A program made the translations under genes and the position numbers. Below the pieces are notes generated by a model that made no database searches, had not been told where the DNA came from, and saw nothing but the letters and a program-made list of their open reading frames with translations. From Nemertoderma westbladi (taxonomy: Eukaryota; Animalia; Xenacoelomorpha): a stretch of DNA of 64,000 nucleotides. The stretch is from the NCBI GenBank assembly GCA_032718475.1, contig JAUCBJ010004084.1, positions 1 through 64,000 on the forward strand, given 5' to 3'. Below, one piece after another: positions 13,331-52,400 of the stretch (positions are counted from its first letter, which is position 1; every line of letters begins with the position of its first letter).

Positions 13331-14435
13331 GACCCGGATAATTGATTACGACTTTAGTGTGAAAAGGAGCGCTCGGCCGATTGGAGATTTGATTTATGAG
13401 CGAGTCTGGTACCCTGCCAACACGATGTGTGGGAGATGCGGTGTTACTGGACATCATGCGAGTAAGTGTAGTGGTAGACATATCCCAACAACTTAATTGA
13501 TTTGTGGATGGTGTGGAGAACAAGGATCACATACATTTTACACGTTTTAGAGGTTCGTGGCTCAATGTATGTACTGCAATATAAAGGGTCATCGAGCTTC
13601 GGAATGTCAGTTGAGAGACATACCTTATGAGACTGCAAAAGTCGGTAAAGCTCTCACGAAGGTTGTTTGACGAGTGGGAGGATTTTGCAGACGGACATGT
13701 GTCAGCACAGAGACGGAGATTCCCGATGAGAGCTCATCTTGGATTTTGGGCAGTAAATCCTCATACTATGATGTCTGAAGGTTACATCTCTGCTATGCCC
13801 AGTATGATGAATTGATGGAGGTGGTTAACATTTTGCCTCACGATAGTGGATTTCGAGTCGTGCCGGAATATTTCTTGCAGATACATCCAGATAACAAGAA
13901 CACTTGGAACTTCCAGAAAGTGGTCAATCGCATTACCTATGGAGAGTTCGATAGATTCCGGACTGGGCAAAGAAATAAAGGAGCGTGGCTAACTGTAGCT
14001 TGGGCGTATCGAGCTGCTTTCTACCATAGATGGATAAGGTCTAGTATATTCGAGGAAGGGGAGATTTTCGAGGAGACGAATATGCCAGCTACTCCGGTTG
14101 CCTCGTCGACACGTCACCCTCGGGAGGACGGACAACAGAAGATTATAAGGGCTCAGAAGATGGGTCAACAGTTGAAGAAAATAATTAATATCGAGGAGAG
14201 AGGAGGAGTTGACTCGACTATTCTAGTGGCTAGAGATACTGTATCGCTTCCCCGAGAACTGCGAGGAGGATTGGGAGACATACCAGCCGAACCAAAAGGA
14301 GTGCAGGCTCCTCGTGAACCTGAATTACCGGCTTCTAGCGTGTTTCCGGATGTCCTACCAACGGTTGAACCGACTCGTCGGTTACAAGGGATCGGACGAG
14401 GGTTTGTCGGTTCAACGATAAGGAGAGCATGCTAG
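13330..14435 (+). pseudogene. Decayed paralog of the 819-aa exonuclease/zinc-knuckle ORF (C-terminal half only)
   Basis: CGRCGVTGHHASKC, CGWCGEQGSH, CMYCNIKGHRASEC, then WEDFADGHVSAQRRRFPMRAHLGFWAVNPH, aligning to WEANADLHCDSRHRYYPGRAYEGVYAFHPY; stops and frameshifts present. Confidence 0.8.
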
Positions 14436-18990: not shown

Positions 18991-19239
18991 CCGAGGCCGC
19001 AGCCCGAGGCCGCAGGGCCCGAGGCCGCAGCGCCCGAGGCCGCAGCGCCCGAGGCCGCAGCGCCCGAGGCCGCAGCGCCCGAGGCCGCAGCGCCCGAGGC
19101 CGCAGCGCCCGAGGCCGCAGCGCCCGAGGCCGCAGCGCCCGAGGCCGCAGCGCCCGAGGCCGCAGCGCCCGAGGCCGCAGCACCCGAGGCCGCAGCGCCC
19201 GAGGCCGCAGCGCCCGAGGCCGCAGCTGAGGCCGCAGCC
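18991..19239. repeat. GC-rich 15-bp minisatellite GAGGCCGCAGCGCCC (~16 units)
   Basis: Direct reading. Confidence 0.97.
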
Positions 19240-20065: not shown

Positions 20066-21330
20066 TGTACGCGCTTTTGAAGACCTTTAGCAGTTTAACC
20101 TGCCAAAATTTATATGTCTTTTGGTTTACAAATAGACTTTAGAAGTTGACAAATATTTAATACCAATAAACACAACATTAGCAGAAGCCAGCCTAGTGCG
20201 CGTCCATTCACCCGCTGGATATACCCGGGAGACTGGATTCTGAGGGCTTAGATTATTATTGCAGTGTAAGCCTACTGTATTATTCGATTGATCGTTAATA
20301 AATAATTTCTGACTAATATTATTCACTTTCGGGAAATATTAACAGTTCCTTTAGGACGTGGCGCTCTATCTAGGTAAACAGAGATATGACTTATACTAAT
20401 CACAACGGTAAGTCGGTAAGGCTTATGATTCACGTATGAGGCGCATTCTTTAGGAAATGCTTAGTTATCAGTCACAATCATGCACACTACCGGTAACACA
20501 CAATACTGCTCACTAATTTGCCGACCGTCAATGAATTTTATCATATATAAAGAGAACAGCAACGGACTCATGTAGTGCTTATCAAATAGCATTAAATTCA
20601 CTACAAACCACAATAATATAAGTCGCAATCGCTATATATAACCCGTCTCTCTAACCTGTAGTGTATCAAGAAAATTGGGAAATTTGGGTTCTTTATAAAT
20701 GTTCTCCAAATAATATTCAACCAACTAATACAAAATATGACAACAGTAAAAACATTAAGACGGTAGGTTAAGATATGATATGACACGTTATGATATGTGA
20801 TATATGATATGACTGGAATGATAACAGTTATACGCTCTATAATCTTAAGCCTACTAATGTTTCTTCTAAAGTATGAAACGAATTGACTCTAGAGCCGGTG
20901 TTCCTGGCCTAGATAGCAACAACACAACAGTATCAAGAAAAACAGTAAGACTGAACACTCCTAGTATGATCGGCCGAATATCTCCACATCGACAGAAAAA
21001 ATCGCTCTGATTGGCTTAAGCTAAACAAAGAACCATGTGTCCAATGGCCGTTTCCATGTCAGCAACCAGCTGTTAGATGTCGCAATCTGAATCATCAAGG
21101 CCAAGCCGTGTAAAGGTATTTGGTGCATTGCGGGTTTTTTGCCTTACCATGTCCTCCAAAGCACGTATATAGAAGAATGACTTTTATGTCCGTTAAAACA
21201 CCTATAACGGTACCTTGCGGGCGAGGGGAATATATATATAGTTAGAGAGCCTTTTAGAGTATTCCAGCGCCTGGGGGGAAACTGGATTGCGAAGCAAAAG
21301 GGCCAGTTATATCCCACAGAAGCTTTTACA
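20066..21330 (-). repeat. ~1.26-kb LTR-like repeat (family B), uninterrupted copy
   Basis: Reverse complement is colinear with 48005-48859 + 53855-54204 (e.g. CTCCCGGGTATATCCAGCGGGTGAATG, AAGCATTTCCTAAAGAATGCGCC); homology bounded by TGT...ACA. Confidence 0.75.
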
Positions 21331-21408
21331 CCGCTCCCAGAAAATGGGATTTGAGTCTATAAAATATACAAAATCACAGTTTCTAATATACGTAAATACT
21401 CTAAACAG

Positions 21409-23868
21409 TTAGTCTTTCTTGCGCGGACGGCGTTTACGCAGTTTTTTAAAGCTAGCCAGAGTCCTTTTCTCTTTGGGGCGAGCCACTTTACAAGGAGGGC
21501 TATAACTCCTGGGTGAAGGGTGCAATATGATTGCATCAGAGGGTGTAGGATTATGGTCGGTGTATCCGCCAGTCGAAGTACCGGGTTGATTGACATCAAC
21601 GTCAGGGGAGAGGGGTCTAACGGCTTTGAGAGCTCGTTTCAAGACAGCCGCTCTTACGGGTCCTTTACGAGTGGTCTGAACGAGGGCCGTGGGTGGACCA
21701 TAGGCAGTTAGAAACCTCCGGGGTTTAATGGTCCTTTCCAACTCGCGTTCGCGGGCTCGGTATTCGTAAGGCCGTCGATATACTTCCTGTAACTCGGGGT
21801 GTGAGTTAACAAACAAGTCTCCATAGTCCGGATCCTGACGGATATAATTGATTAAGTTATAGGAATGAAGGTCGCTAGGATTAACACTCCTGAGAAATTT
21901 GCGTACGAATTTGGTTGAAATACATTCTCCGACGCGCTTCAGTAGCTCGTAACTTGATATGCGTGATTTCTGTTCAACCGAAGCGAATAGATAAGGATGG
22001 AACGCATAAACTCCTTCGTAAGCGCGTCCGGGATAATAGCGATGGCGCGAATCACAATGTAAATCAGCGTTCGCTTCCCAAGCTCTGATGTAACGTAGTG
22101 TGATCATTTCATCTACGCTTTCCAAATCGTGATTAAAAGGGCAATCGAAACTGGCATGTCCCTTTAGTTGACAATGGTGACATTGAGTCATAAATTGAGG
22201 GCAAACCGCAAAGATATGCAAGTTATTGAGTCTGCAATATGCGCAATAAATTTCCATAGTCGGTTGTTCTTGGAAATAGGAACAGCGGACGTTGGTGTCC
22301 ATGGGCGTATCGTGGTCTCTCGATGCGCATAACCGACAACGTTGCCTAGAAACATAGTTGGCATGTCGATAATCGTACGCAGTGAGACACTGTGGACCTT
22401 GATACCATTCTATGATGTAATCGTTGTCGCTGTTCCGGGGCGCGATAGGCTGAATCTCTTCAGATTCTAGACATATTGGTTCGTCTTCCAAGTGCATAGC
22501 TGAAGTGGGCGCGTCTGTCTCTTCAGGTGGACCTATTGTCTGAATTTCCACGACAGAATAACCTGTGGGGATTCGAGGTCTTTGTATAACAGAGGAGTGC
22601 AAGTTCGATATACAAATCTCTTGGAAAACGGCGAATCCAGCGCTATCCAACTTCTCTGCAGCTGAGTTTCTTAGGCTGAGCTTGGTCAAAGCGCGGTCTT
22701 TAAATTGGCTATCCACGTTGCGGAACGGGGTTAAAAATCGCCGGAAACATTCGAAACGGATGAATTTATTATGTTCATCTAGCTTAGCGAGTTTGGTCCC
22801 AAGTATTAATGGATGGGCGCGTATGGTACGACTGCACACATCGGCTAGCCAACCGGCAAGTGCGGTGTTTTCAAAGATCGTGTATATAGCTAAGGAGGGA
22901 CGGAGTGGAACACTCATGAAGCTATACACGGCGCCAGGTGCGGTCAATGGTCCATCAAAGTATAATCGAGAATAATGGTCTCCGTATACTTGTTGATAGT
23001 TAATGGGATTTCCGACTTTGAAATTCCATCCGTATTCCTGAAAGGCAAGATGTCCGATGGAAGTTCGTTGCACCTTTGTAATGTTGCTAGACGTATTAGC
23101 ATACATGGTGCGGAAGAAACCTCGACCTTCTGCCCAGGGAGCAATCAGCTGAGTATCAACGAAAGGGTATGGAATGTTCTCCATATTCCGAAAGTCGTTT
23201 TGGAGATCTCCATAAACAGCTGAGCCGATTTTAAGGATTCTTTCGTTGAATAACATCTCGAGTACGGGCTGGGGTAACATCGATCCATCGATGCCCATGG
23301 CCGGTTTGCGTTCGGTGTCAATGACGTAACGCTGCGCGAGTTCGAATTGTCCATGTCGGAGATTCTTTTGTGTTTCGGTGAGAGTTTCAAAAGAATAATC
23401 AATCACGTCGGAACACGCTCGAGTAAACACGTGGGTAGAACCAGCTAATCCGCGTATGTGGATCATGCGCGTAGTTCCTAGTTCTCCGACCGGAACGCTA
23501 CCTTCATTATCGTAGGTGACAACTCCATACATCTCAATAACATTAAGAGTTTCATTCCACTCCTTGGTGGCGTTCTCTAGGGTCATCCCTACTGGATGCC
23601 ACAAGGTGGCGCATTGGTTAGCGTCAGGGAGATCACTATACTTCATGTGCCGAGTGGTATACGTCTCCGCATTTCCATATCTTTGTATTTTCTCTTCTTC
23701 AAATAATACATCTAGATTCCAATGGACTAATCGAGTTTTGATAAATCCATCGAGATTATAAGGAGGTTCTATATCTTTCTCGATTCGAGAAATGTTATAT
23801 GGTTTTCTAAATGAGTTTACCTTTACTAACTGATCCAGATGATGAATTATTTCACTATAAGGTAGCAT
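21409..23868 (-). CDS. 819-aa intronless protein: DEDDy 3'-5' exonuclease-like domain + three CCHC zinc knuckles + basic tail
   Basis: ExoI VVTYDNEG (D120/E122), LPQPVLEMLFNERILKIGSAVYGD (D221), FVDTQ, SIGHLA..GWNFK, ExoIII PL..IYTIFE (Y329/E333); knuckles CRLC..H..C, CAYC..H..C, CHHCQLKGHASFDC; tail KKLRKRRPRKK. Confidence 0.8.
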   Translation of the reverse strand: MLPYSEIIHHLDQLVKVNSFRKPYNISRIEKDIEPPYNLDGFIKTRLVHWNLDVLFEEEKIQRYGNAETYTTRHMKYSDLPDANQCATLWHPVGMTLENATKEWNETLNVIEMYGVVTYDNEGSVPVGELGTTRMIHIRGLAGSTHVFTRACSDVIDYSFETLTETQKNLRHGQFELAQRYVIDTERKPAMGIDGSMLPQPVLEMLFNERILKIGSAVYGDLQNDFRNMENIPYPFVDTQLIAPWAEGRGFFRTMYANTSSNITKVQRTSIGHLAFQEYGWNFKVGNPINYQQVYGDHYSRLYFDGPLTAPGAVYSFMSVPLRPSLAIYTIFENTALAGWLADVCSRTIRAHPLILGTKLAKLDEHNKFIRFECFRRFLTPFRNVDSQFKDRALTKLSLRNSAAEKLDSAGFAVFQEICISNLHSSVIQRPRIPTGYSVVEIQTIGPPEETDAPTSAMHLEDEPICLESEEIQPIAPRNSDNDYIIEWYQGPQCLTAYDYRHANYVSRQRCRLCASRDHDTPMDTNVRCSYFQEQPTMEIYCAYCRLNNLHIFAVCPQFMTQCHHCQLKGHASFDCPFNHDLESVDEMITLRYIRAWEANADLHCDSRHRYYPGRAYEGVYAFHPYLFASVEQKSRISSYELLKRVGECISTKFVRKFLRSVNPSDLHSYNLINYIRQDPDYGDLFVNSHPELQEVYRRPYEYRARERELERTIKPRRFLTAYGPPTALVQTTRKGPVRAAVLKRALKAVRPLSPDVDVNQPGTSTGGYTDHNPTPSDAIILHPSPRSYSPPCKVARPKEKRTLASFKKLRKRRPRKKD

Positions 23869-23977
23869 TTGTAGTTTAACTTTAACGTAAAAACTTTCGA
23901 AAATCCGACGTATTTTGATTAAGTTACAGTAATGTAATATGCCTATTCATATTTGTACACATAAAACCCTTAGGCAC

Positions 23978-24052
23978 TCTCGTGGCGTAGTGGTCAGATG
24001 GTTAAGGCGTTGGTTACATTACATAGGTTACGTGTTCGAATCCCAGTCGGGA
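23978..24052 (+). ncRNA. tRNA-derived sequence with intact Pol III A and B boxes (not a canonical tRNA)
   Basis: A box TGGCGTAGTGG at 23983, B box GTTCGAATCC at 24034, TCTCG/CGGGA terminal stem; no clean anticodon arm. Confidence 0.65.
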
Positions 24053-24099
24053 AATTTGTATTTTGGGGCCATTTATTTTCGTTTGGTGCTAATTGGTAG

Positions 24100-24900
24100 G
24101 CCAATGAGAAGCGTACAACGTAGCGAATGATGAGCCAGGCCAATCATAGGGCATAAATTATCTTATTGCTCAAATGTGAGGCAGTGGAAAATTCTGTTAG
24201 GATTCCATGTCCCAGATTAGTGCAAGGGCCGGACTGCGTTGTACGATGAGCTGGGCCAATCATAGGGCACGAAGCACTTCATTGCTCAATTGTGAAGCTG
24301 TGGAAAATTCTGTTTAGTTTCCATGTGCAATTTCTAGTATAAAAGGCCGGTTTGCCTTCGGTTATCACTTCTATCACTCTTTTTAGAACCCTTATGTTAC
24401 ACTCTCTTATTCTTGTAAAAATTAGTTAATTCGGTTTCTTGTTGAAACTTCGTTTTGATAAATCCTTTGTAAAACTGTAAATATACTGCAAATTCCTGAC
24501 ATGTTTTCTTTTGGTCCAACTTCGGGACAGCCGAACATCAGGGAGATGGCAGCCTAGACCGTTAGGCCGTAAGCAACGCAGGGAAGGGATGTCCACAACA
24601 CGCTAGCGCCCACATTGGATCGACCGCGCTCCCCCTTTGCCCCTTCGAAATGCTCAACTTGCTATGCAGCGCCCGCTTTGTGAGAAAGGTAAGACTTTGT
24701 TCGACGCCCTTGCCCGCCGTAAGACCTATAGATCAGGGTAAGCGTGACACCGTACTGGACGCCGCAAATTTAGGATCAAATAATTATATCCAGACAACCC
24801 CCCCCCCCCCCCCCCCTTTGTCAAGTCCTACGAATCCCTGGGTTAACCTGTACTTCCTACAGGTGCGAACTATTGCCATTCGTCAGTACGCGAGTACATA
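24100..24900 (+). promoter_or_regulatory. LTR-like promoter/leader module, copy 2, upstream of BEL/Pao gag-pol
   Basis: CCAAT x3, 82-bp duplication (24129-24210 / 24245-24326), TATAAAA at 24338, PBS-like TGGTCCAAC at 24512, splice donor AAGGTAAG. Confidence 0.75.
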
Positions 24901-27083
24901 TTAGGTATGGACAGCATATGTTCCATAATTTAGTGATTCATAGCACTGACTGTTTGGTACCGGTTCGCTTTGTAGAACGTACATTAGTACCCCCCCCCCC
25001 CCCCCTGTCTGGAGTTAGCTATTTGATCAGGCAAGGAGCATTTCTGCTACCGGCACACTGCTTGGCCTAGGGAGGTTTATTAATATCCTACCGCGCCTTG
25101 CCACGTACTGATAGGTATTGCTGCTAACTACCGCAGCAACAAAGTTCTAGAATTAAATTAGTATACCAGATCAGCTAACGTACGGTAGCGATTAACCCAT
25201 ATTCTTATCTTACAACCAGAATCTGGTATTAGTGCCGATCACGGGTGTAGTTACTAACACTGTGGTTGCCCATTGGGTTGTGGATAGGAAGGAGAGAGCT
25301 TTGACGTCATTCGTGAGTATAAAGTTCTACAAACGCGACTAGTTTATTTTAGTAGCTAGCGCACGGTATCATTTTAGTCAGAAAATCACTAAAACCTAGT
25401 AAAAGGAATTACACGAAATTGTTTTATTTGTAACACACCCACACACACACGCCCTAAAACATATTGCCCTTAAAGTTCTACTAGCTATAGCGCACTATAC
25501 ATTACTTTAGGTGGAAATTGTCTGTATTTGTAAAATTAGGATCTGATTTAGTTGCGGCAAAATAAGGAGTATTTCACTTTCGTTATTAAACTGTTGATTT
25601 CTGTCCAGCAGTTATTGTTACATTTAGGCCTGACCTTTTAGACTGATTTCGTACAGGGGGATCAGTTATCGTTACATTAGGTACGACCCCTTTCGACTGA
25701 TTTTAGGACTGAATCAGTGTTGTTACGCTAGGTCTGTTAACCCACTAGCTCGTATATAAACCATATAAATCACACCGCGGCAAGTTACTGTATTTAGGAC
25801 TGTCAGTGATAGTTAGGATTCGCTGCGCGGGGATTGTTTTCCCGTGAGTTTGGTCTGTTACTGTAACTGTACATCTGCCTCACCGGTTAGAGGACAGGTA
25901 TCCTTCTGTCTTGTACGTAGGCATTAGACCCGCTCACGTACATAGAATAGATACTAGGCTCTGTTCCTCGCCAGTAGTCGTTTGTGTACTGTATCTGTTT
26001 GTTTAGATATCCTGGACTGGGATTTGTTGTCAGATACTGTACGAGCCCGTATACATTACTAGAGTCTCATAGTAAGATACATCGTTACTAGGATCTGGTA
26101 AGCGGTATACTACTGGACCCTTACAGTAGGAAGTATTTATATAAATTAGTATATAGTGTTTCCGCCGTAGCGTATAGTATAGTTTAGAATTGTTAGCTAT
26201 TGAAAGTAGGAGATATTTAAAATTTAAGGTTAGTAAATTTAGTAATTTAGAACGTCCCCTGCTTCAGTAGGCTTTTAGGGTAGCTAGTACTTTCGTATTT
26301 AATATTTGACTAGCTAACAGTTAGTTTGTAGCACTTTGTTTTACGCCGTGTGTGTGCGGTGTTACTTTCGGTACTTGAAAAGGTACATAGGGTTTAAAGA
26401 CCAATTTGTATCGTTACCTAGGAAGATTTTTCGTAAGCGTAGAAGTAAAACTCTCACCTTCGACCTTTTCAGGACTCAAGGACTCATTTCTGGACCGCTT
26501 CGAGGATTAGACCGCTTTTCGCAAAGTTTGGGAGACAATAAATTCGTCCGCGCCGCCGAAAAACGGAAAGACCCACGTCCGGTTTGTATTTGGGAATTTG
26601 TACGACTGGAAGATCAAAGGAACGTAAGTTTTACGACTCGCGTCGTTCAAACTTAAGAAAGCACAGTAGTACTCAAAATTTGTGGGTTTCACTGTCTATT
26701 AGTAGTGTTGTTGGTACGTATTTTCCCGTTAGACGTTGCTGTTTGGCCTATTGTTTGTACTTGTTGATCTATATTTTGTTAACGTATACCGTTATCTCAT
26801 TTATTCGTACAAATTTAGCCGGTAGGCTAGATTACTACTTATTTTATTATATACCTTGTTAGTTTTATTTGTACCGGTTAGGGTATATATATGATATATA
26901 TATATATCAAGGTAAGTTTGACATTTGTACATTTCGACATTTTGACATTTCGACATTCTGACTTGTTGATTTATTTGTACCGGTTAGGGTATATATGTAC
27001 TATATATACCAAGGTAAGTTTGACACTTCAACATTCAGACACTTTGACATTTTATTACCCGTACTTGACGTATATAATAAGAC

Positions 27084-30000
27084 ATGAGTGACACACCCCA
27101 TTCGACGAGATACCCACCTACCGACTATGACTCGTGCGACCCGGACAGATCGACAGTAGACGAACCGAGAAGGAGAACCCGAGATTCCACCGATGTCACA
27201 CCGCTTGCGTCGCCGGTACCCCGAACGGAAATACCGGAAGCCGCAACGCGTGGCGACGGCAGAATCGAAGATTTCCTTACCGTCCCGCAGACTAGATCAC
27301 GGGAACCGGACATGGTAAGTTCGACTGGAAGCCAGGAGAACGTTATTAGAAGTATAGGAGGACACATGGCCCAGATTACTCGGAACCTCGGAGAAGGTTT
27401 TCGCGTTTTACGCGAGTTAACCGCCCCGATGTCGAGATACGAGTTCTACACCTTACAGGTAAGGATAGAAAGTAGGGTACATGCCTCCGTAGATAAACTT
27501 AAAGGTTTACACGAACTTGCAGAGTTGCGTGGCGACAACTTTACTCAGGTAAAGATAGTAGATAAATTAGTAAGTGCGAGAGAAAGCATTATCCAGTTTA
27601 AGTCAGTAATAAGATTGGCTCAACAGGAGCAGTTTGACCAACTGCTAGGTGAGTCAGTTTCGGATGCGTTGTTACAACCCGAAGAGGAAGAAGAACTCTA
27701 CTGCCTGGACGGAAGGTTGGAAACGCTTACCAATTTTCTTCGTAGATGCGGCGTACCGATCGACGAACCGGAAGTCGAACCGCGAGGGACGACGGAAGTT
27801 CTCACTACGGAAGGCTCGCGAGCCTACCAACATCCACCACTGGATAGATCGTTCGTTAGCGTACGGAGCGACGTTGGCGACGTTGGCGACGTTAGTAGAA
27901 CAGCGTCTGGAATTATTCGACAACAACAGGAGGTCGCACGCCGACAACAAGTCGCTGAGGAAGAAACTCAACGACAATTGGCGCAGATTGCGATGGAAGG
28001 AGAAAGACAGCGTAGAGAAGACGTAGCGAAACTTGCGAAACTTCAAGCGCAGGCTGAGTTCGAAGCATCAGAGATGCGGAGACTGGAGGAGGACTTAGCG
28101 CGAGAAGCGGCAGCCGACGAGTTAGCACGACAGGCGGCAGCTGACGTGTTAGCACGACAGGCGGCAGCTGACGTGTTAGCACGACAGGCGGCAGCTGACG
28201 AGTTAGCACGGAAAAAGGCAGCATCCGACGCTCGGGCCAAGTTGGAGGCGCGGCAAATAAATGCTCGATTAGCTATACAGGAAGCGGAGTTAGCGGCACA
28301 ACAACAGGATGCAGATCGACGCGAAAGAGAGATGCAGCTCCAGTTCGAACTAAATCGCAGATCGCGCGAGGCGGCGAACGCGCAAGAGGACCTCGAACTC
28401 GACGCGAGAGATAGATCTATAAGATCGCGAACTGGACACGACTTGTCTGCCCTGGATCGTATGGAAGCTCGATATCGCGGAATACAGAAGCGGATCGAGG
28501 AAGGAAGCGTGGGAGCGATAGATCGAGGAGAGGAGTTCGTTGAGGATTACTGTAAACGTTTTCCCCAAGTTATTCCTATGCTCAAACCCACGACTCCAAT
28601 AAAACCGGTCTTTGTTACGAAACCTAAGGAAATAACGCCTGTGCGTTCGACGCAAGGCAACAGGTTTGTTGTGACGGAAATACCGCAACCTAGGGCGACT
28701 TCATCGCCAATTTTAGCAGGTAAGATAAGTAGTCCACCTACTGTAAGCCGTAGTTTACTTGTAGAGAGAGACGAACCTGCGTTTATGACAGTAAAACAGG
28801 TGAGTAAACCATTACAAGTTAAACCTGTGACGTGCTGCGCGAACCCAGTCATTTATAAACCTACAGTAGAGCTTAACTCCGATGTTTTTACTAGACCTCT
28901 CACCCAATGTTTAACGAGACCTACGACTTCGTGGAAGGCTTGCGAGCCTGCCGAACAACGGAGAGCCGTAGATCCCAGATCACAACGAACTCGACCAAGG
29001 ATAATACGCCGGACGCGAACCCGCCAACCACCTTATCCGGACGACAGCGACTCATCTAGCGACTCGGAGTCGACGGAACGGGAAATATTCCGTACGGGAG
29101 CGGCAGCGGCAGCGGATTACAAACGGGAGGAGAGATCGACAAACCCATACATCGACAATCCACCTCGAGAAACACCCCAACAGAAACCCACGTTGCAACC
29201 AGCGGAAGCGATTAGCACCAACAGACTCGCCGAAATAATGCGACCTGTAGCGGACCGACTAGCTCAGATAGAAGAGCGACTCGAAGCACAACCGTCGGAT
29301 CGATCACGAACCAGCGTGGAGTTGGAACAACCTAGACAACATCGACCACCGAGGAGAGAACAGGAGACTAGACGGACTCCGACACATCGAGAAGAAGATC
29401 CCGTTAATAATTCCTACCGACGAACAACGCGCGGAAGGGAACGACTGGACGACGCCGCCGAACAGGGACGCGGACAGTTGGATTTGGTTAGCGAGATTGC
29501 GAAATTCGCGGCTAGACACGGATTACCGGCACAGCAACCGCCGAAGTTCTCTGGCAACGCGAAACACTGGCGCACACTGGTAGACTACGTAGAGTCCCAG
29601 ATCGCTAAGTGTGCTTTCACCTCGACGGAGAAGTTTAATTACTTGCTCCAAGTCCTGTCTGGTGAGCCGAAACGATTAGCGGAAACCTTTATTGGTGTTC
29701 CCGATGCCTTTGAGTTGGCATACGACCGTTTGTATTCAATTTACGGCGGTAATGTCGCCATGGCTAAATCCATCATTGAAGACCTCTGCAGAGGAGGCAA
29801 CATTTCGAGACCGATCGACCTTTTACGACTCGCGGACGAAATAAAGAACGCTATAGGGACTTTACGGTCCATTGGACAACTCGAGTACGCTAACGCACCG
29901 ACGGTTCTCATTCGAATAATCGGTCGACTTCACCATCGACTACGAAGAGAATGGCGACGCATCGAGTACCAGCGCGAAGAGGCCGGAGGGTTATTAAAAC

Positions 30001-33000
30001 TCACCGATGTCTATCAACTTATTTCACGGGAGGCCGTGATCGAGACTCGATCGAACTATACCGATCACCATATCGCGGCGGAAGGGATAACTGTTTCTGC
30101 GCCGAATCGGACTAAACCGTTTCCGACGAACGCGAAAGCCGTTACTTACGCCACCCCTACTGAGACTTCTAAAGTTCTGACGCCTATCGGCACCACGCAG
30201 CCACGACAACAGTTGCCGGCGGACTTTGTGGGATGCTCATACTGCGAGCGGAACGGCAGAAACCATAGCGGACATAAACTACGTGGATGTCGCGCTTTTA
30301 AAGAGTTAGGGATCGAGGAGAGGAGACTCCAAATCCGATCTCTAGATTCCTGTTGGAGATGTATGAAGCCAGGACACGTCCGGAAGGATTGCCCGAGCGA
30401 CGATACATGTTCTTTGTGTGGACGTAACCATGACGCGTTGCTTCACACAACCAGTCATACTCCGACCAGACGCTTTCGACGAGAGCATCCAGATAAAGCG
30501 GCTAGATGCGACGCGCTTTATAAGGAGCGTGCGCCGCGCGAGATCCGTACCTTTTATACCGACTGTATGGATCAGTCAGGATCATCGGACGAGGACGAGG
30601 AGGAAGACGACACTTTCTACGTGCATGCAGGTGAGGAACAGCCATCGATAACGCTCCTCACACAGAACCAACTGAAAGGGTTTAGCGTGATTCCTATAAA
30701 GATTACCGGAACCCGAGGGAGCAAGCGTATATACGCCATCTTAGACTCTGCGTCATCGCATAGTTATGTCGACGAACAAGTAGCCGACGTAGTTACGGAC
30801 ATGAGTCAAGGTAAGACTGCTCAGTATACTGTAAGCAGCATGCATGGTAAGAGAGCGATTCCTGTGACAAGAGTAAAACTAACCTTAGACACTCTTCTTT
30901 CCAAAGCGGAACACAGCAAGGAGGAGCGCTCATTACTTCCGGTAAGAAATTTGACCTTTGCAGCTACGAAGGACTTTAGTAACTTGCTCGGCCCTGTGCC
31001 AGAGCAATCACCGGAAGATCGTAAGTATTTCCGACACCTTGGAATACCGGAATGTCCTGTCAATTATCGTTCTATTGCGATGTTAATTGGGACAGACCAG
31101 TTTAACTTACATCAGGTATGGGAGACACGCCCATCTGTTATTACAGCGGGCAACCCCTACGCATGTAGAACTCCCATAGGTTGGTATACTAGAGCACCAA
31201 TACGTTCACTAGAGGTAAGTGACCAGGAGGACGACGTTTTGAGTACGTGTAGTTTATTGACTAACACGATAGATAATTCTCCTTCACACTCCCGTGGTCC
31301 AATTGTACGGACGGCACTACGACAGACTTGCGTCACTAACGCAGACGCCACCGATACTGACGTAACCGATCTGGACACGACCATACGGACCTCTGACTTA
31401 CAACTACTTGCAGTAGACCAGGTTGTATTGACTGCTGAAGACCTGAGGGTTGTTGCTGTGGATGACTCGATGAACGAGGATTTTGGAAGGCTTGCGAGCC
31501 TACCGAAAAATCCGAAGGTCATTGACCCCACCCACCAGGCTTCGACACCGGTCGTTGATCTTGGAAGGCTTGCGAGCCTACCGATAGATCAAGAAGTTGT
31601 CAAACCGCCGCACGACGATTCGACGCCGACTAGTGACACCGGAAGGCTTGCGAGCCTACCAGACACCTTGACACTAGCCACCGCAGCGGACGAAGACGTG
31701 GACGAGGACCATGGCGCAGTGCAAGCAGCGCTTGACCGACTGCTGACTGAACGGACCATTCAATGGTTGGAACAGGACTCAGCAGAACCCGGTAGTTACG
31801 AGACCGCTATGTCAGAACAGGAAAAACGGTCATTAAATATTATGAGAGATACCATTCGCCAGACCGCGAATGGCCACTATGAGGTTGGTATGTTGTGGCG
31901 CAATGGACAACCTAAGCTCGTTAACAATTACCCGCTTGCTTTGAGGCGACTCAAATCAATAAGGCAGCGATTGTTGCGAGACGAGATGGCCCATATGCAA
32001 TACAATGCACAACTTCAGACGTATCTCCAAAAGGGATACGCCATTAGGATGTTAAATCCCGAGGTAACCACAGACCAGACATATTACCTGCCACATCATT
32101 TTGTTCGACACCCGGACAAACCTGGCAAGGTGCGTGTAGTCAACGACTGCGCTGCGCTTTACCAAGGGATGTCTATGAACAGCGAACTGATGGACGGGCC
32201 GAATATGAATAATTACCTCATGGGAGTCCTAATGCGTTTTAGACAACGCAAAGTGGCTTTCACCTGTGACGTAGAGGCCATGTTTCACCAGGTTAAGGCT
32301 TTGGAGCGGGACAGGGACAGTTTGAGGTTTCTTTGGTATCCGGACGGAAACTTACAACTTCCGCCAGAAACTTACCAAATGCAGGTAAGAGTTTTCGGAG
32401 CCAGGGACAGCCCCAACTGCACCATGTACGCCTTAAAGCAGACAGCATTAGACAGACGAGACCAATTTGACCCAGAAGTAGTTCGGACCGTGGAACGAGA
32501 TTTCTACGTGGATGACGGCCTCAAGAGTTGTGACACCTTGGAGCGCGCTACAACCGTAGCACACCAACTCCAGGATTGTCTCGCTGAGGGCGGATTTCAC
32601 CTGACGAAGTTCGCTTCCAACGAACCCGAACTGGTGAACTCATTTGACCCGATGGACCGTAGCGGAGGTGACTTGGACTTAGACCTAGAACCTCTGCCGA
32701 CGACCAAAGTATTAGGACTTAGTTGGGACCCTAACACCGACAATTTTAGGGTACGTGTAAGGTCCAACAACCAGACTAGACCTCTCACTAAGAGGACTTG
32801 CTTATCGACCATGAGTCGATTGTATGACCCATTGTGTTTCATTAGTCCAGTGATCCTACATGCTAGGATCATACTCCGCAGCATTTGGCAAGCCGGACTG
32901 GAATGGGACGATCCCATCCCAGCTGAGCGATGGAGGGACTGGGAAGCCCAACTGACGTTCCTACAAGACTATACCATACCGAGGGTATACTTTCCTTTAC

Positions 33001-33488
33001 AAACCACCTTTCCTGCCGATTTAGAGCTTCACAGCTTTAGTGACGCTAGCAAGGATGGATTTGGGGTTACTTTATACCTTAGACGACAAGTGACATCGGA
33101 CAGCTACGATGTATCTCTCGTTACTTCAAGGGCTAGAACAATGCCATTGAAGTATATGACTGTACCTCGTGGGGAGCTGCAAGCCGGGACGATATCCACC
33201 AATATTGTCAGTCTAGTTCAACGCGAGCTGGAGGCTAACTTGAAGGTCACATATTGGACGGATGCGACGTTGGTACTTTGGTACATAAACAACGAAACAT
33301 TCGAGTTCAAGACTTTCGTAGCCAACAGACGGGCTGAAATACTAGACCGGTCGCTCAAACAAGATTGGCGTCACTGTCCAGGGAAGCTGAACCCAGCTGA
33401 CATAATAGCGTTGCTAGTTCATCAGACGATTTCCCAGAATAAATATTGGATTATTAAAAGTTGGTGTGAAGAAGAAACAAATAGGTAG
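27084..33488 (+). CDS. gag-pol: BEL/Pao LTR retrotransposon Gag-Pol polyprotein, 3'-truncated in RNase H (no integrase)
   Basis: PPKFSG gag block, CWRC..H..C..CSLC..H..LLH knuckles, protease AILDSAS, RT YYLPHH..RVVND..DVEAMF..YVDD, RNase H FSDAS/PRGEL/WTDA/WRHCPGKLNPAD; homology stops ~33405. Confidence 0.95.
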   Translation: MSDTPHSTRYPPTDYDSCDPDRSTVDEPRRRTRDSTDVTPLASPVPRTEIPEAATRGDGRIEDFLTVPQTRSREPDMVSSTGSQENVIRSIGGHMAQITRNLGEGFRVLRELTAPMSRYEFYTLQVRIESRVHASVDKLKGLHELAELRGDNFTQVKIVDKLVSARESIIQFKSVIRLAQQEQFDQLLGESVSDALLQPEEEEELYCLDGRLETLTNFLRRCGVPIDEPEVEPRGTTEVLTTEGSRAYQHPPLDRSFVSVRSDVGDVGDVSRTASGIIRQQQEVARRQQVAEEETQRQLAQIAMEGERQRREDVAKLAKLQAQAEFEASEMRRLEEDLAREAAADELARQAAADVLARQAAADVLARQAAADELARKKAASDARAKLEARQINARLAIQEAELAAQQQDADRREREMQLQFELNRRSREAANAQEDLELDARDRSIRSRTGHDLSALDRMEARYRGIQKRIEEGSVGAIDRGEEFVEDYCKRFPQVIPMLKPTTPIKPVFVTKPKEITPVRSTQGNRFVVTEIPQPRATSSPILAGKISSPPTVSRSLLVERDEPAFMTVKQVSKPLQVKPVTCCANPVIYKPTVELNSDVFTRPLTQCLTRPTTSWKACEPAEQRRAVDPRSQRTRPRIIRRTRTRQPPYPDDSDSSSDSESTEREIFRTGAAAAADYKREERSTNPYIDNPPRETPQQKPTLQPAEAISTNRLAEIMRPVADRLAQIEERLEAQPSDRSRTSVELEQPRQHRPPRREQETRRTPTHREEDPVNNSYRRTTRGRERLDDAAEQGRGQLDLVSEIAKFAARHGLPAQQPPKFSGNAKHWRTLVDYVESQIAKCAFTSTEKFNYLLQVLSGEPKRLAETFIGVPDAFELAYDRLYSIYGGNVAMAKSIIEDLCRGGNISRPIDLLRLADEIKNAIGTLRSIGQLEYANAPTVLIRIIGRLHHRLRREWRRIEYQREEAGGLLKLTDVYQLISREAVIETRSNYTDHHIAAEGITVSAPNRTKPFPTNAKAVTYATPTETSKVLTPIGTTQPRQQLPADFVGCSYCERNGRNHSGHKLRGCRAFKELGIEERRLQIRSLDSCWRCMKPGHVRKDCPSDDTCSLCGRNHDALLHTTSHTPTRRFRREHPDKAARCDALYKERAPREIRTFYTDCMDQSGSSDEDEEEDDTFYVHAGEEQPSITLLTQNQLKGFSVIPIKITGTRGSKRIYAILDSASSHSYVDEQVADVVTDMSQGKTAQYTVSSMHGKRAIPVTRVKLTLDTLLSKAEHSKEERSLLPVRNLTFAATKDFSNLLGPVPEQSPEDRKYFRHLGIPECPVNYRSIAMLIGTDQFNLHQVWETRPSVITAGNPYACRTPIGWYTRAPIRSLEVSDQEDDVLSTCSLLTNTIDNSPSHSRGPIVRTALRQTCVTNADATDTDVTDLDTTIRTSDLQLLAVDQVVLTAEDLRVVAVDDSMNEDFGRLASLPKNPKVIDPTHQASTPVVDLGRLASLPIDQEVVKPPHDDSTPTSDTGRLASLPDTLTLATAADEDVDEDHGAVQAALDRLLTERTIQWLEQDSAEPGSYETAMSEQEKRSLNIMRDTIRQTANGHYEVGMLWRNGQPKLVNNYPLALRRLKSIRQRLLRDEMAHMQYNAQLQTYLQKGYAIRMLNPEVTTDQTYYLPHHFVRHPDKPGKVRVVNDCAALYQGMSMNSELMDGPNMNNYLMGVLMRFRQRKVAFTCDVEAMFHQVKALERDRDSLRFLWYPDGNLQLPPETYQMQVRVFGARDSPNCTMYALKQTALDRRDQFDPEVVRTVERDFYVDDGLKSCDTLERATTVAHQLQDCLAEGGFHLTKFASNEPELVNSFDPMDRSGGDLDLDLEPLPTTKVLGLSWDPNTDNFRVRVRSNNQTRPLTKRTCLSTMSRLYDPLCFISPVILHARIILRSIWQAGLEWDDPIPAERWRDWEAQLTFLQDYTIPRVYFPLQTTFPADLELHSFSDASKDGFGVTLYLRRQVTSDSYDVSLVTSRARTMPLKYMTVPRGELQAGTISTNIVSLVQRELEANLKVTYWTDATLVLWYINNETFEFKTFVANRRAEILDRSLKQDWRHCPGKLNPADIIALLVHQTISQNKYWIIKSWCEEETNR

Positions 33489-35080: not shown

Positions 35081-35111
<31 letters not shown>

Positions 35112-47900: not shown

Positions 47901-48006
47901 GACGGGTGGGACACAGCGGTTAGATGACGGGTGGGACAGCGGTTAGATGACGGGTGGGACACAGCGGTTAGATGACGGGTGGGACACAGCGGTTAGATGA
48001 CGGGTG
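44984..48006. repeat. 3-kb G-rich minisatellite, 25-bp unit GATGACGGGTGGGACACAGCGGTTA with 23-bp variant (~120 units)
   Basis: Direct reading. Confidence 0.98.
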
Positions 48007-48859
48007 TAAAAGCTTTTGCGGAATTGCCCGGTTATTTTTCCTTATTTTTCCCGTAAAATACTCTGTAGTTGGTTTAGTAGGCGTAAGAGGCCGTATTATT
48101 GCTGTATCGGTGTTTTTTAGAGGACCTAAGAGCTATTTCTTCCGTATGTGTACTTTGGGGGACATGGTTGGTGATTCTATGGCAATTCTATGACGCAAAA
48201 TAGCTAGATCCTCTTGAAACAGTAGTTACTATGACGACGGTTAACAGCTGAGCTGTATACGTGTCGATTTTCTTTGTTCTACGGTGCCTCTCAGTTCAGT
48301 CAACCAATCAGAGCGTTTTTACTGTTCTTGTACAGAAATTTCCTAGAAATCACGCAATGCTTTATGGGCAGTGTTATCATTCAGTCCTGAGCCAAGAAAG
48401 AACGGCTTTTGGAATATTTGTGCTTTTCTGCTTTTAGCCTAACACTAGTAGGCTTAATTATAAGGACATATATCCGTTATCTGGGTAACTCAATGGTTAA
48501 CAACTTACTCAATGCTTGGCTGGTCTTGTCGTGCATACTTTTATAACGTTATACTGCTATTTACTGTCGGTTATTCATTATATGGTTGATGAAATATTAT
48601 ATTTGGAATAACGAGAAATAACCCCGAAAACCCAATATTCTTGATATACCGAAGGTAAGAGAGACAGGTTACATATAACGATTGTGACTTATGTTAAAGT
48701 GGTTTGAAGTGAATCTAATGTTATCTGATAGACCCTACATGAGTCGGTCTGTGTTCCTTTTATATGTGACTAAAATCAGTGAAGATCGGCAGATCAGTGT
48801 GCAGCATTGTGTATGAGTGAGACTGATAACGAAGCATTTCCTAAAGAATGCGCCATATA

Positions 48860-49212
48860 TGTTGTTAGTTGATTCACAATAGATTCTTATAACAAAGAAT
48901 AGGCTTGAATATAAAACTATATATTGAGCGATATTGATAAATCCGATTGTAATAACTATTGACGAATATATAATAAACAATTAATAGCCAAACACCAATG
49001 AACACAACTTTCGAAACCAAGGCGTCACGCACAAGTCAACGTTAGTCGGGCCAATGATAAAAGACTAACTACCGATGCCCTAGTAGCATACGGTAGGTTT
49101 AACTACAAGTACAGCAGTATCGCTTACCGGTACTGAGTAACACGTAAACTCATAAGTAAAAAAATAATCTACCGGTACTCGCTGATAAGCTAATTCAAAA
49201 TTCCCTCTCACA
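48860..49212 (-). repeat. Copia 3' LTR (353 bp, TG...CA)
   Basis: Follows the PPT; ends where host repeat B resumes. Confidence 0.8.
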
Positions 49213-49483
49213 AATTCCCCCCTACTTAAAACTTTGAATAAAGTGAACAAAAATTACATTACTTAACTTACAGTAAGTCAATGCAATAATCCGCTAAAGA
49301 TAATAGTTCTTGGCGATAATCGCAACATTTCCTAAAAAAATTACTGTATCAAACAAATATATAACACCAAAAAAAAAACTAAAAATGCCATCAATATCAT
49401 AGTTAGAATAGTAATTTAAATCATTGAATAGTAAATCAAAATTGCGAAAGCAATACAGTACAAAAGTTCTGTAATTAACCCAA

Positions 49484-52400
49484 TTACATCGAAACAATAA
49501 AATCGTCTTTGGTAACTTTACGCGGGTTCTTTTTCGTCAATACATCGGCCAAATTCTTCTCTGAAGCAATTAATTTCAGTTTCCAATCATTCCTTATGAT
49601 CCCTTCACAGATATACGAGAAATCTATCAACAGGCGTTTTTCCAATGGTGTTCCTCGTTTACCGGAAACAGCGTCAAACAAAGATTTATTATCAGTGTAC
49701 GCTTCTATCGCAGTAAAATAACCAGTTATCCATTCAATGATGTTCCGAACAAAACAGGCAGCATCTAGACCATCGACCAAAGCAATTGTTTCGGCTGATA
49801 AAGCGCTCTTAGCAACTCGTCGTGTCTTAACGGATCTCCACGAAATTAATGAACTACCCCAATAAATAATATACCCACACCAACTGGGTAAATCAAACGA
49901 GGCATCACAATAAACGGTTAGCTTGTTAGATTCCACCTTGGTATAATGTAAACCAACATTCGCTGTGTGCTGTAAATAACGTATTAATTTGTTAATCGTA
50001 TTCTTCGTAACATCTGTCATTTCTTGGTTATTTAACATGGAAAGTGAACCAACATGAAATGATATGTCTGGCCTCGAAGTTCCAGCCGCCCATAAAAGTT
50101 TGCCGACAATTTTCCGATTAATATTTGGTTTATATTGATTATCCACTTCATCAACTGAAAGCTCTATTAAATTTGAAACAAATTGAGATTGATTAATTTC
50201 AATCAAACCATTTTCTGAACGACGAATCTGCATACCAAGAAAATTGCTCCACTCTGAGGACAATATTTTCTTATATCCAATGGTCAATCGATGTGAAAGT
50301 TTGTTTAATACGACTCCAAATTCTACAGATCCTATAGAAATGATGTCATCTACATGGACTGCCATACAACCAATTATTTCCTCTGTCGAAGTTTTAAAGA
50401 CAAATACAGCTCTGTCCGACGGACAAGATTTTCCATTAAGAATACTTAGCTCTTCGTACAATCGATTGTACCATTGACGTGAGGCATCAGTTAAACCGTA
50501 CACGCATCGTTTTAGTTTCCAAACATAGCCTGGTCTCGCATAATCACGCGGTGGTATAACAAAAACATCTCTAGAGATATTAGACCCTTGAAGGAATGCA
50601 GTCTTAATATCAATAAACGTGATATCCCAGTTGTTCGTTAGAGCCAAAACTAGCAGCAAACGTATAGATTCTTTGGAGCAAGTTGGAGAATAAGATTCTG
50701 GATTATCCAAATCTTCAAACCCTCTAGCTACCAATCTCGCTTTTGGTACTTTTGCGCCATGGGGTGTTTCCTTCCAAGTCAATACCCATTTGGTAGTCAC
50801 GGTATTCATGCCTTCCTTAAAAGGTATTTCTTCATAGACATCATTAGCTGCCCATTGACTCAACTCGTCAAGCTTGGCAGCCTTAAATGGATCGAAGCTG
50901 TCATTATCATTAGCATTAGAGTTGAACATAGCCACTTCACACGATTCAACCTCAGATTCCGGATTTTCTGCAGGACCTCTCAAGCGATTTCTTAGTGGGT
51001 AAGTCTTGGTCTGGCTGTCTTTGACTAATTTTCTAGAACTACAAGATCCATTTACACCACCATTAACATTCTCATTGATTTGAGTTGGACCACTCTCCTT
51101 ATGAGAAGTATTGGAATGACCCGGATCGAATTCATTATGATGTGTTATCGGTACAGTGTTATCTGTTTGCTCTTTGTATGGTAAATTAAGTGGTGCGTCT
51201 TGAGATGGCGAATCATTATTGGTGGAAGGTTCGGAATCGGGAAGGTCATTCTCATCAATATTGTCGAGGTTTGAATTTCCTTTATTGATAATTGGTCTTA
51301 CAAAATTCTTGTGACAACGGAAAAATATTCCTCCCTGTTTAATCATGTATTCACAGCCTTGACGAGAAACAACTACGCCAGGACCACACCATTTCTTGAA
51401 ACGATTGCTGAAATAGTAGACTTGATCTCCACTAGCAGAGTGTATTATTGATGGTCGGATATTTCGTGCCAAAGCTCGCCGAACGCGTGAACTAGCCTCA
51501 ACTGTGGCATATTCCTTACGAACTTTATTTAACAGCTCGAGGTGTCCTTCAACAGACGATGCTGATTCACAAGCTTGATCCAACGCAGTAAGCTTATCGG
51601 TTAACATACTATTCAGATATGGACCTCTACCAAACACAATATGGTGAGGTGAGTATCCAGTCGCATTGGGCCAGGAGTTCTTTGCTAGAGAAATCATCCG
51701 AAATAGTTTATAATTACTTGAATTTGGCTGCTCCAGTTTCACCTTTTTAAAAATTTCTTTGACAATCGAATTATGGCGCTCGACAATGCCATTCGAAAAA
51801 GGACAGTAAGGCACTGTTGACTTATTAGATATGTTGAGTTTTTCGCACATTTCATTGAACAGATGGCTAACAAATTCCTTTCCATTATCGGTAAGAATTC
51901 CTTTCGGCTGACCAAATACAGACACCCACATGTCCAGAAAGACGTCGATGATCGTTGTAGTTCGTTTGTCTTTCACAGGTGTGGCAATACTATATCGACT
52001 AAACAAATCTATGATGTGAATTGCCCAGTTACCTGTCTCAGGAATTAAAAATAGGTCTGCAGCTAATACTTCATTGAAAGAATTAGACAAAGGCAATGAT
52101 ACAATTGGCCTAAATGGTGGTCTACTAATTAGGCTGCATGGCTGACATTGATCGATAACAGCTTGAATTTTTTACTTGGTGGTATCAAGGCCAGATTGAA
52201 TAATTAACTTGTAGAGTGTCTCACATCCAGCATGACCAAATTGACGATGTAGTTTATCCAATTCTTTATCACTCAAAGCTGATGTTGACACTGCCAAATA
52301 ATTCGTAGAACTTCCACACCGTTGAGTGTAGAGTACGAGATGACCATTGCGGAAAAAAAGTTTGCATTCAACACCATTTATTTTGATGATCCTTTTGGCA

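What the first reader, a model, noticed from the sequence alone, without database searches (positions are those of the whole stretch)
21409..33488. BEL/Pao-linked accessory gene encoding a DEDDy 3'-5' exonuclease fused to CCHC zinc knuckles
Seen: an uninterrupted, intronless 2.46-kb ORF starts ~110 bp from a tRNA-like/CCAAT/TATA/PBS-like module that leads, on the other strand, into a BEL/Pao gag-pol. It has Exo I (D120, E122), Exo II (KIG..D221) and Exo III (Y329-x3-E333) motifs plus three knuckles and a basic tail. Established: this motif spacing is that of the DnaQ-like DEDDy WRN/EXD/Mut-7/Nibbler family, several of which act in small-RNA pathways; canonical BEL/Pao elements encode gag-pol, sometimes env. 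Inference: a captured RNA-binding nuclease kept by the element, possibly as a piRNA/siRNA counter-defence or an RNA/cDNA end-processing factor. I know of no description of this in BEL/Pao.
Basis: partly seen in the sequence, partly recalled or inferred. Interest (0 to 1): 0.88.

Follow-up and report, generated by a model that had tools for sequence, protein, structure and literature searches.

The report
Exonuclease gene in BEL/Pao retrotransposon
A repeated jumping gene in an animal genome carries an extra gene, kept intact by selection, in the slot where retroviruses keep their envelope gene; its protein is predicted to be an RNA-trimming enzyme with zinc fingers that likely works against the host's small-RNA defence, and the element is likely of the BEL/Pao class, whereas we found such genes described only for other classes of mobile element.

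Summary
The 819-codon intronless ORF (23868-21409, minus) is real, highly repeated and under purifying selection (23 of 36 listed copy differences synonymous, 10.6 expected). One distant homologue (P0001) shares the exonuclease, the knuckles and the basic tail. The domain is WRN/EXD-like (PF01612) by profile and language-model evidence; both folds failed, and Exo III has Glu for Asp in both proteins. On the ORF's own strand the stop is followed after 78 bp by a polypurine tract, a 1.27-kb TG..CA LTR and single-copy DNA: the ordinary ORF3 (env) slot before a 3' LTR. A 68-80% identical copy of that LTR heads a second BEL/Pao gag gene at 56403. The adjacent gag-pol (27084-33488) more likely belongs to another BEL element inserted head-to-head at about 23840, where family contigs of four runs leave our sequence; an amplified composite is not excluded. 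DEDDy ORF3s are published for bdelloid Ty3/Gypsy-type elements and Terminons; no BEL/Pao case turned up in seven paper searches. Verdict: new variant of a known kind; function untested, small-RNA counter-defence favoured.

The parts
21409..23868 (-). Accessory ORF (ORF3 position), 819 aa: N-terminal extension, DEDDy-like exonuclease, linker, three CCHC knuckles, conserved post-knuckle segment, basic tail; codons 1-9 may be derived from the nested LTR
22834..23535 (-). Exonuclease domain, about aa 112-345: D120, E122, D221, Y329, E333
22141..22338 (-). Three CCHC-type zinc knuckles, aa 511-576
   Evidence: (P0001 knuckles match retroviral NC, E 1e-4)
21412..21486 (-). Basic C-terminal tail (13 K/R in 25), NLS-like; P0001 also ends basic
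21331..21338 (-). Short polypurine tract directly before the LTR
   Evidence: sequence
20066..21330 (-). LTR-B, 1265 bp, TG..CA, 3' LTR of the exonuclease-bearing element; begins 78 bp after the stop; single-copy DNA beyond it
23840..24540 (+). LTR-A, likely 5' LTR of the neighbouring BEL element (TGATG..CATCA), with A/B-box-like stretch, CCAAT repeats and TATA; ends approximate
24547..24552 (+). PBS-like TGGCAG, conserved in the related leader at 17970; tRNA not identified
27084..33488 (+). BEL1 gag-PR-RT-RNase H, truncated before integrase; likely a separate nested element
48005..54204 (+). Second LTR-B copy (48005-48860 and 53876-54204), split by a Copia element, 68-80% identical to the first
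54014..54236 (+). Long-range pairing between LTR-B interior (54014-54032) and the sequence just after the LTR (54218-54236); no TGG-type PBS after this LTR
56403..61136 (+). BEL2 gag-protease (internally deleted pol), 2.2 kb downstream of the second LTR-B in the same orientation
13400..14435 (+). Broken distant paralogue of the ORF's knuckle and post-knuckle region
   Evidence: phmmer E 1.2e-7 and 8.5e-4 among 18 frames

Best explanation
The ORF is a selected, multicopy accessory gene lying in sense just before the polypurine tract and 3' LTR of an LTR retrotransposon that is likely BEL/Pao, and it is predicted to encode a 3'-5' exoribonuclease whose CCHC knuckles would hold single-stranded RNA and whose likely job is to trim or destroy host small RNAs that silence the element. 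Shown: ORF, motifs, position before PPT and LTR-B, repetition, synonymous excess, a second LTR-B copy ahead of a BEL gag. Inferred: (1) that the exonuclease family's own gag-pol is BEL/Pao, through the second LTR-B copy (about 0.8); (2) that the neighbouring gag-pol at 27084 is a separate element nested head-to-head at about 23840 (about 0.7); (3) an active two-metal nuclease, from D-E-D-Y-E being kept at 25-29% identity (about 0.7); (4) RNA as substrate, by analogy with TbRND (exonuclease plus CCHC fingers) (about 0.7); (5) nuclear import by the basic tail and expression from a subgenomic, probably spliced RNA (untested); (6) counter-silencing as the selected role (about 0.4, the largest single share among the functions considered).
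For: Position: stop, 78 bp, PPT, TG..CA LTR of 1265 bp, then single-copy contigs that end 26 bp inside the LTR in two studies (X1 19701-20091 depth 28; X3 19696-20091 depth 7). Second LTR-B copy: 78% over 345 bp and 74% over 294 bp, 68% over 836 aligned bp with both ends matching (5'-most part score 65 vs max 23 in 200 shuffles), followed by 2.2 kb and a gag-protease ORF with DUF1759 E 2e-11. Nesting: contigs leave our sequence at 23841 in 4 of 4 runs (9, 4, 5, 5 contigs), none of the 32 pieces shown bridges that place, and in X5 depth is 388-789 in the seven ORF bins and 1334-4903 in the 13 bins from 23847 to 24379. Repetition: single contigs over the ORF at depth 5447 (X1), 5353 (X3), 10597 (X2) against about 28-31 for single-copy X1 contigs. 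Selection: 23 of 36 listed differences synonymous, 10.6 expected, P 2e-5; 13 of 14 in codons 92-571. Family: P0001, E 1.1e-6, the only hit among 1.84 billion representatives, keeps the same motifs; its residues 30-260 give 25 of 30 Atlas hits with PF01612 at up to 0.94; hhalign of the pair against two WRN-like sequences 92.8% over Exo II, one of which matches WRN exonuclease structures at E 1.5e-7. For counter-defence: DEDD nucleases were taken up by elements with unrelated replication modes (gypsy-type LTR, Terminons, Dada; PMC5408684, PMC3706591), which points to a general benefit (inference).
Against: No complete element with LTR-B, gag-pol and this ORF together was seen; no genome is held. 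BEL2's own 3' region up to 64000 shows no exonuclease match. Depth is continuous across 23841 in three of four runs and swings two-fold between bins anyway; only 24 of 260 loose-end rows and 32 of 4811 pieces were shown, and the long contigs that leave at 23841 are 12-16% diverged, so they may be a subfamily. Pfam gives no hit for the window protein and only E 0.2 for P0001; the Exo I alignment does not beat shuffles (22 vs mean 21); Exo III has E for D; both AlphaFold models had pLDDT 30. Nothing here measures activity, substrate or expression. Mature piRNAs carry 2'-O-methyl ends that resist such enzymes (general knowledge), and Rodriguez et al. found no clear link between a DEDDy ORF3 and copy number (PMC5408684).
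Confidence: 0.65

Rival explanations
1. One reading: ORF, tRNA-like/TATA module and the BEL1 gag-pol are one amplified composite element with a divergent promoter.
For: Summed depth is of similar size over ORF, module and leader in X1, X2, X3 and has no gap at the junction; the ORF has an ATG and stays open to 23946; a broken paralogue also lies upstream of a related module at 13400-18204, though in the same orientation.
Against: PPT and LTR-B follow the ORF on its own strand; LTR-B leads into a gag only 22-25% identical to BEL1; contigs leave at 23841 in 4 of 4 runs and no shown piece bridges it; X5 depth steps up about three-fold there; nested insertions are common in this window (Copia in LTR-B, non-LTR fragments).
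Confidence: 0.25
2. Same structure, different job: the enzyme serves the element's own replication, trimming an RNA primer or cDNA 3' ends; family B may prime without tRNA by folding its RNA 5' end onto the sequence after the LTR, as Tf1 does.
For: No TGG-type PBS after the second LTR-B; instead 54014-54032 pairs with 54218-54236, about 30 bp after a TATA-like motif (fold z -3.7, 1 of 200 shuffles as good; complementarity reached by 13 and 18 of 1000 shuffles for the two LTR copies). Rodriguez et al. and Kojima and Jurka propose 3'-end processing for their DEDDy domains.
Against: One locus only; the pairing starts 14 nt after the LTR end and is interrupted, unlike Tf1's 11-nt match (PMC7175516 passage); U5-leader stems are common in LTR elements (general knowledge); most LTR elements replicate without such an enzyme.
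Confidence: 0.25
3. The ORF rides in a non-autonomous or non-BEL LTR element, and LTR-B's position ahead of BEL2 is a chance neighbourhood.
For: Summed depth over the ORF exceeds that over BEL1 gag-pol several-fold; no pol of its own is seen; the second LTR-B has no target-site duplication and no canonical PBS.
Against: The second LTR-B is followed without a visible break by a 2.2-kb leader like BEL1's 2.5-kb leader (same strand skew, duplicated TATATA block before the ATG); four X4 contigs continue past the LTR end with letters that by eye resemble that leader start; BEL2 has no other promoter module.
Confidence: 0.2
4. A retroposed or captured host gene carried as a passenger, or a catalytically dead RNA-binding decoy.
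For: Exo III D-to-E change; earlier unchecked AI notes describe dead DEDD ORF3s in gypsy elements.
Against: All five catalytic positions are acidic or Tyr in both family members; strong synonymous excess among mobile copies; no close cellular relative among 5.8 billion proteins.
Confidence: 0.15

Closest known systems
DEDDy ORF3 of bdelloid rotifer LTR retrotransposons Juno and Vesta, and of Athena/Terminon elements (Rodriguez, Kenefick, Arkhipova 2017, PMC5408684; parts 1-3 of 5 read, abstract to discussion)
   Same: Stand-alone DnaQ-like exonuclease gene in the env slot of an LTR element, catalytic residues kept, no membrane segment, function untested
   Different: Those elements are not BEL/Pao and are low-copy; their motif is given as DEED, ours is D-E-D-E with the change in Exo III; no triple CCHC fusion is mentioned in the text read; sequences were not compared directly
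TbRND, Trypanosoma brucei RNase D (PMC7797062, passages read)
   Same: DEDD 3'-5' exonuclease followed by a linker and several CCHC fingers that bind the RNA substrate; the top whole-protein Atlas cluster for P0001 is a Euglenozoan PF01612 + zf-CCHC cluster (0.86)
   Different: Cellular mitochondrial gRNA-trimming enzyme with four fingers and canonical Asp in Exo III; a working analogue, homology beyond the fold not shown
WRN/EXD/Mut-7/Nibbler exonuclease domain (Pfam PF01612)
   Same: Exo II context (LP..L..L....KIG....D) and Y-x3-acid Exo III helix align
   Different: Below Pfam's cut-off; about 35-residue insertion after the first strands relative to P0001; Glu in Exo III
Dada DNA transposons of Laccaria and Ectocarpus (PMC3706591, passages read)
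   Same: Mobile element with a DEDDy domain proposed to process 3' ends
   Different: Domain is inside a DDE transposase, not a separate gene of a retroelement
Belpaoviridae / BEL-Pao elements (ICTV profile PMC8742986, whole text read)
   Same: gag (DUF1759), protease, RT, RNase H; LTRs of 0.7 and 1.27 kb; extra gene 3' of pol
   Different: The profile lists only gag, pol and env; no exonuclease gene; tRNA-Arg/Gly PBS not matched here

Membership tests
DEDDy 3'-5' exonucleases (PF01612) | Exo I D-x-E after a hydrophobic strand | tested here: inconclusive
   VVTYD120NE122 pairs with P0001 ILSIDVE in the best local alignment, but the score does not beat shuffles and MAFFT misplaces it
DEDDy 3'-5' exonucleases (PF01612) | Exo II Asp in its conserved context | tested here: met
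   D221; hhalign 92.8%, E 3.9e-7 over 37 columns against WRN-like sequences; those sequences were found with this motif, so the test is not fully independent
DEDDy 3'-5' exonucleases (PF01612) | Exo III Y-x3-D | tested here: not met
   Y329-x3-E333, and Y-x3-E in P0001, aligned to YAALD of WRN-like sequences: Tyr kept, Asp replaced by Glu; so DEDDy-like variant, not a canonical member
DEDDy 3'-5' exonucleases (PF01612) | Profile score above the family cut-off | tested here: not met
   No Pfam hit for the window protein; P0001 11.9 bits vs cut-off 23.6
DEDDy 3'-5' exonucleases (PF01612) | DnaQ/RNase H-like fold | tested here: inconclusive
   AlphaFold pLDDT 30 twice, so no fold search was run; Atlas features of the homologue 0.94, 25 of 30 hits PF01612
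DEDDy 3'-5' exonucleases (PF01612) | Two-metal 3'-5' exonuclease activity | not testable with these tools
   needs an assay
ORF3 of an LTR retrotransposon | Sense ORF directly upstream of PPT and a TG..CA 3' LTR | tested here: met
   single-copy flank beyond the LTR
ORF3 of an LTR retrotransposon | Multicopy, intronless, selected | tested here: met
BEL/Pao (Belpaoviridae) element | BEL-type gag-pol inside the same pair of LTRs as the ORF | tested here: inconclusive
   Inferred from the second LTR-B copy ahead of BEL2; no complete element seen
BEL/Pao (Belpaoviridae) element | 18-nt PBS for tRNA-Arg or -Gly after the 5' LTR | tested here: not met
   No TGG directly after LTR-B at 54204; one copy only, and host tRNAs could not be searched
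BEL/Pao (Belpaoviridae) element | RT phylogeny within BEL/Pao | not tested
   BEL2's RT is deleted; BEL1 assigned by Pfam only
Bdelloid Juno/Vesta/Terminon DEDDy clade | Sequence clusters with the rotifer retroelement DEDDy ORFs | not testable with these tools
   Those proteins were not returned by any search here

The most novel reading that the evidence does not exclude
A BEL/Pao lineage that has given up tRNA priming, primes reverse transcription by folding its RNA 5' end onto the sequence after the LTR, and carries its own exonuclease-knuckle enzyme to trim that primer.
Probability: 0.1. Interest if true: 0.8.

Novelty: new variant of a known kind. Interest (0 to 1): 0.52.

Why it matters
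It would extend exonuclease capture from rotifer gypsy-type and Penelope-like elements to a further retrotransposon superfamily, as an independent protein type (WRN/EXD-like with Glu in Exo III, fused to three knuckles). Unlike the low-copy rotifer cases it is abundant and under clear purifying selection, so it offers a direct test of an open question: whether animal retrotransposons encode enzymes against piRNA/siRNA silencing, or use such nucleases in their own replication.

Tried and rejected
No genome held, so copy context could not be scored. Word-indexed protein searches: none for the ORF at near and shorter lengths; only P0001 itself with the pair profile. PDB sequence searches gave no exonuclease for the ORF, P0001 or the pair profile. 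Two AlphaFold jobs uninformative; no fold search run on them. No related locus in JGI metagenomes with the ORF, IMG/VR, GTDB genomes or phages; the pair profile in metagenomes gave 4 loci with WRN-like domains, used only as family references. No RNA holder listed (X4 only guessed RNA): no evidence on expression. tRNA-like stretch not recognised and not significantly similar to its counterpart at 17390 (40 of 200 shuffles as good). Considered and set aside: one 4.4-kb LTR (20066-24501) with an antisense gene in U3, because the PPT, the independent LTR-B copy with both ends, and the 23841 departure fit two elements better; a DNA-transposon origin, because of PPT and LTR. Malik et al. 2000 is not held; I have an uncertain recollection that nematode Cer (BEL) elements were once noted to carry an exonuclease domain and could not check it. 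Paper searches for BEL/Pao with an exonuclease listed no such report; PMC3118150 has no occurrence of 'exonuclease'. Repbase, GyDB, subscription papers and supplements were not seen.
Full report
Observation. The ORF is as described: 819 codons on the minus strand, 23868-21409, without stops, far beyond chance (about 4e-20 at local composition). The neighbouring ORF at 27084-33488 is a BEL/Pao gag-protease-RT-RNase H (Peptidase_A17 E 1.9e-37, DUF1759 E 3e-9) that breaks off after the RNase H end motif near 33401. The tRNA-like stretch is an A/B-box look-alike by eye only; ARAGORN and Rfam did not call it.

The protein. Pfam has no hit for it. An exhaustive HMMER search of 1.84 billion representatives returned one relative, P0001 (648 aa, E 1.1e-6, 29%), an unnamed ENA singleton on a 9.4-kb contig. 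It has the same plan: D-x-E, KVG..D, Y-x3-E, three CCHC knuckles, a short conserved segment after them and a basic end. Three word-indexed searches added nothing. For P0001 residues 30-260, 25 of 30 Atlas hits carry PF01612 (best 0.94), the other 5 being unnamed clusters at 0.94-0.95; the whole protein's first hit is a PF01612 + zf-CCHC cluster at 0.86, a lead only. The pair profile found 4 metagenome loci of 237 candidates; ORFs of two of them are PF01612, one matches WRN exonuclease structures (E 1.5e-7), and they align with our pair over Exo II at 92.8% probability and place YAALD against YTIFE and YIYCE. Exo I does not score above shuffles, and both AlphaFold models failed at pLDDT 30. So the domain works out as WRN/EXD-like with a family-wide D-to-E change in Exo III; the fold is inferred, not shown.

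A selected mobile gene. Contigs of public DNA runs from several studies pile up over the ORF; single contigs reach depth 5447 (X1), 5353 (X3) and 10597 (X2) against 28-31 for single-copy X1 contigs, roughly hundreds of copies, with the tool's caveat that depth is no copy number. I took every listed difference inside the ORF: 17 of the 40 rows shown (1283 hidden) and 20 of the 40 shown (37 hidden), one shared. Of these 36, 23 are synonymous against 10.6 expected (P 2e-5), and 13 of 14 in codons 92-571. The rows are the best-supported ones, not a random draw. A broken, distant paralogue of the knuckle region lies at 13400-14435 (E 1.2e-7 and 8.5e-4 among 18 frames).

Which element. On the ORF's own strand the stop is followed after 78 bp by a short purine tract and a 1265-bp repeat that begins TG at 21330 and ends CA at 20066; beyond it lies single-copy DNA, with contigs of two studies ending 26 bp inside the repeat. 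That is the 3' end of an LTR element with the ORF in the env slot. A second copy of this LTR-B (48005-48860 and 53876-54204, split by a Copia) matches at 68-80% including both ends and is followed, in the same orientation, by a 2.2-kb leader and a second BEL gag-protease (DUF1759 E 2e-11). BEL1 and BEL2 are only 22-25% identical, so LTR-B is unlikely to serve both. Four X4 contigs continue past the LTR end with letters that by eye resemble the start of that leader. I therefore infer that LTR-B marks a BEL/Pao family and that the exonuclease is its ORF3. In 4 of 4 runs contigs leave our sequence at 23841 (9, 4, 5 and 5 contigs), none of the 32 pieces shown bridges that point, and in X5 depth rises from 388-789 over the ORF to 1334-4903 over 23847-24379. 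The simplest reading is a head-to-head nested insertion near the ORF's 5' end, in which case codons 1-9 come from the LTR. Against it: depth is otherwise continuous, bins vary two-fold, most rows are hidden (24 of 260 loose ends, 32 of 4811 pieces), and the long departing contigs are 12-16% diverged and could be a subfamily. I put nesting at about 0.7 and an amplified composite at about 0.25.

How it likely works. By analogy with TbRND, whose CCHC fingers hold the RNA that its DEDD domain trims (PMC7797062, passages), the protein is predicted to be a knuckle-guided 3'-5' exoribonuclease; retention of D-E-D-Y-E across 25-29% identity suggests it is active; the basic tail in both members suggests nuclear import. 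None of this is tested. I favour action on host small RNAs or their unmethylated precursors (about 0.4) because such nucleases have been taken up by elements that replicate in unrelated ways; the main rival is trimming of the element's own primer or cDNA ends (about 0.25). One clue for the rival: LTR-B is not followed by a tRNA-type PBS; instead the next 32 nt pair with a stretch about 30 bp after a TATA-like motif in the LTR (z -3.7, 1 of 200 shuffles; 13 and 18 of 1000 shuffles), recalling Tf1 self-priming (PMC7175516, passages), though the match is interrupted and offset.

What is known. Rodriguez et al. 2017 (PMC5408684, parts 1-3 of 5 read) describe DEDDy ORF3s in bdelloid Juno and Vesta LTR elements and Terminons, with motif DEED, activity untested, and raise both RNA 3'-end processing and silencing. 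Dada transposons carry a DEDDy domain (PMC3706591, passages). Later reviews repeat the rotifer case (PMC6338049, PMC5718144, PMC6431247, passages). The ICTV profile of Belpaoviridae lists only gag, pol and env (PMC8742986, whole text); the BEL/Pao survey PMC3118150 has no occurrence of 'exonuclease'; passages of PMC554778, PMC9094657 and PMC11662393 showed none for BEL elements. Seven searches listed no BEL/Pao exonuclease. Malik et al. 2000 is not held, and I have an unverified recollection that nematode Cer elements were noted to carry such a domain; Repbase, GyDB and supplements were not seen. Earlier unchecked AI notes report Rrp6-like and dead DEDDh ORF3s in gypsy elements of other genomes; they suggest the arrangement recurs, which lowers surprise, and I did not test them.

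Verdict. Real, selected accessory gene; DEDDy-like rather than canonical DEDDy; ORF3 of an LTR family that is likely BEL/Pao, but probably not of the gag-pol beside it. New variant of a known kind; interest 0.52.

Noticed in passing
window 13400-14435 (+): Broken distant paralogue of the ORF's knuckle region (stops and a frameshift), so at least two exonuclease-knuckle-type families exist in this genome.
   Followed up: partly
window 17390-18204 (+): Second A-type 5' end: B-box-like stretch, CCAAT, TATAAAA, TGGCAG and a leader homologous to BEL1's (score 126 vs max 83.5 in 200 shuffles); truncated.
   Followed up: partly
window 23980-24050 (+) and 17390-17470 (+): tRNA-like A/B-box stretch inside the U3 of two diverged BEL-type LTRs; possibly a retained TFIIIC site; not recognised by ARAGORN or Rfam.
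   Followed up: partly
window 54014-54236 (+): No tRNA-type PBS after LTR-B; the following 32 nt pair with the presumed transcript start region (z -3.7), recalling Tf1 self-priming.
   Followed up: partly
window 26855-27052 and 56018-56256 (+): Both BEL elements have 2.2-2.5 kb leaders ending in a duplicated TATATA-rich block just before the gag ATG; BEL1's carries two AGGTAAGT splice-donor motifs (26909, 27011).
   Followed up: no
window 62830-63750 (+): Broken ORF without Pfam match in the 3' region of BEL2; possibly another accessory gene.
   Followed up: no
window 48861-53875 (-): Copia element (RVT_2, rve, gag) nested inside the second LTR-B.
   Followed up: partly
window 44900-48000; 1-860; 7256-8091; 18957-19271: Tandem arrays of 25/23, 19, 22 and 15 bp.
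   Followed up: no
window 34364-38907, 39665-43853, 15380-17150, 11196-11828: Several non-LTR retrotransposon fragments; an inverted-repeat element at 35070-36460 interrupts one of them.
   Followed up: no
L001-L004: Metagenome contigs with intron-split WRN-like exonuclease domains sharing KIGSA..GDL with the ORF; probably fungal (inferred from Atlas neighbours), context not examined.
   Followed up: partly
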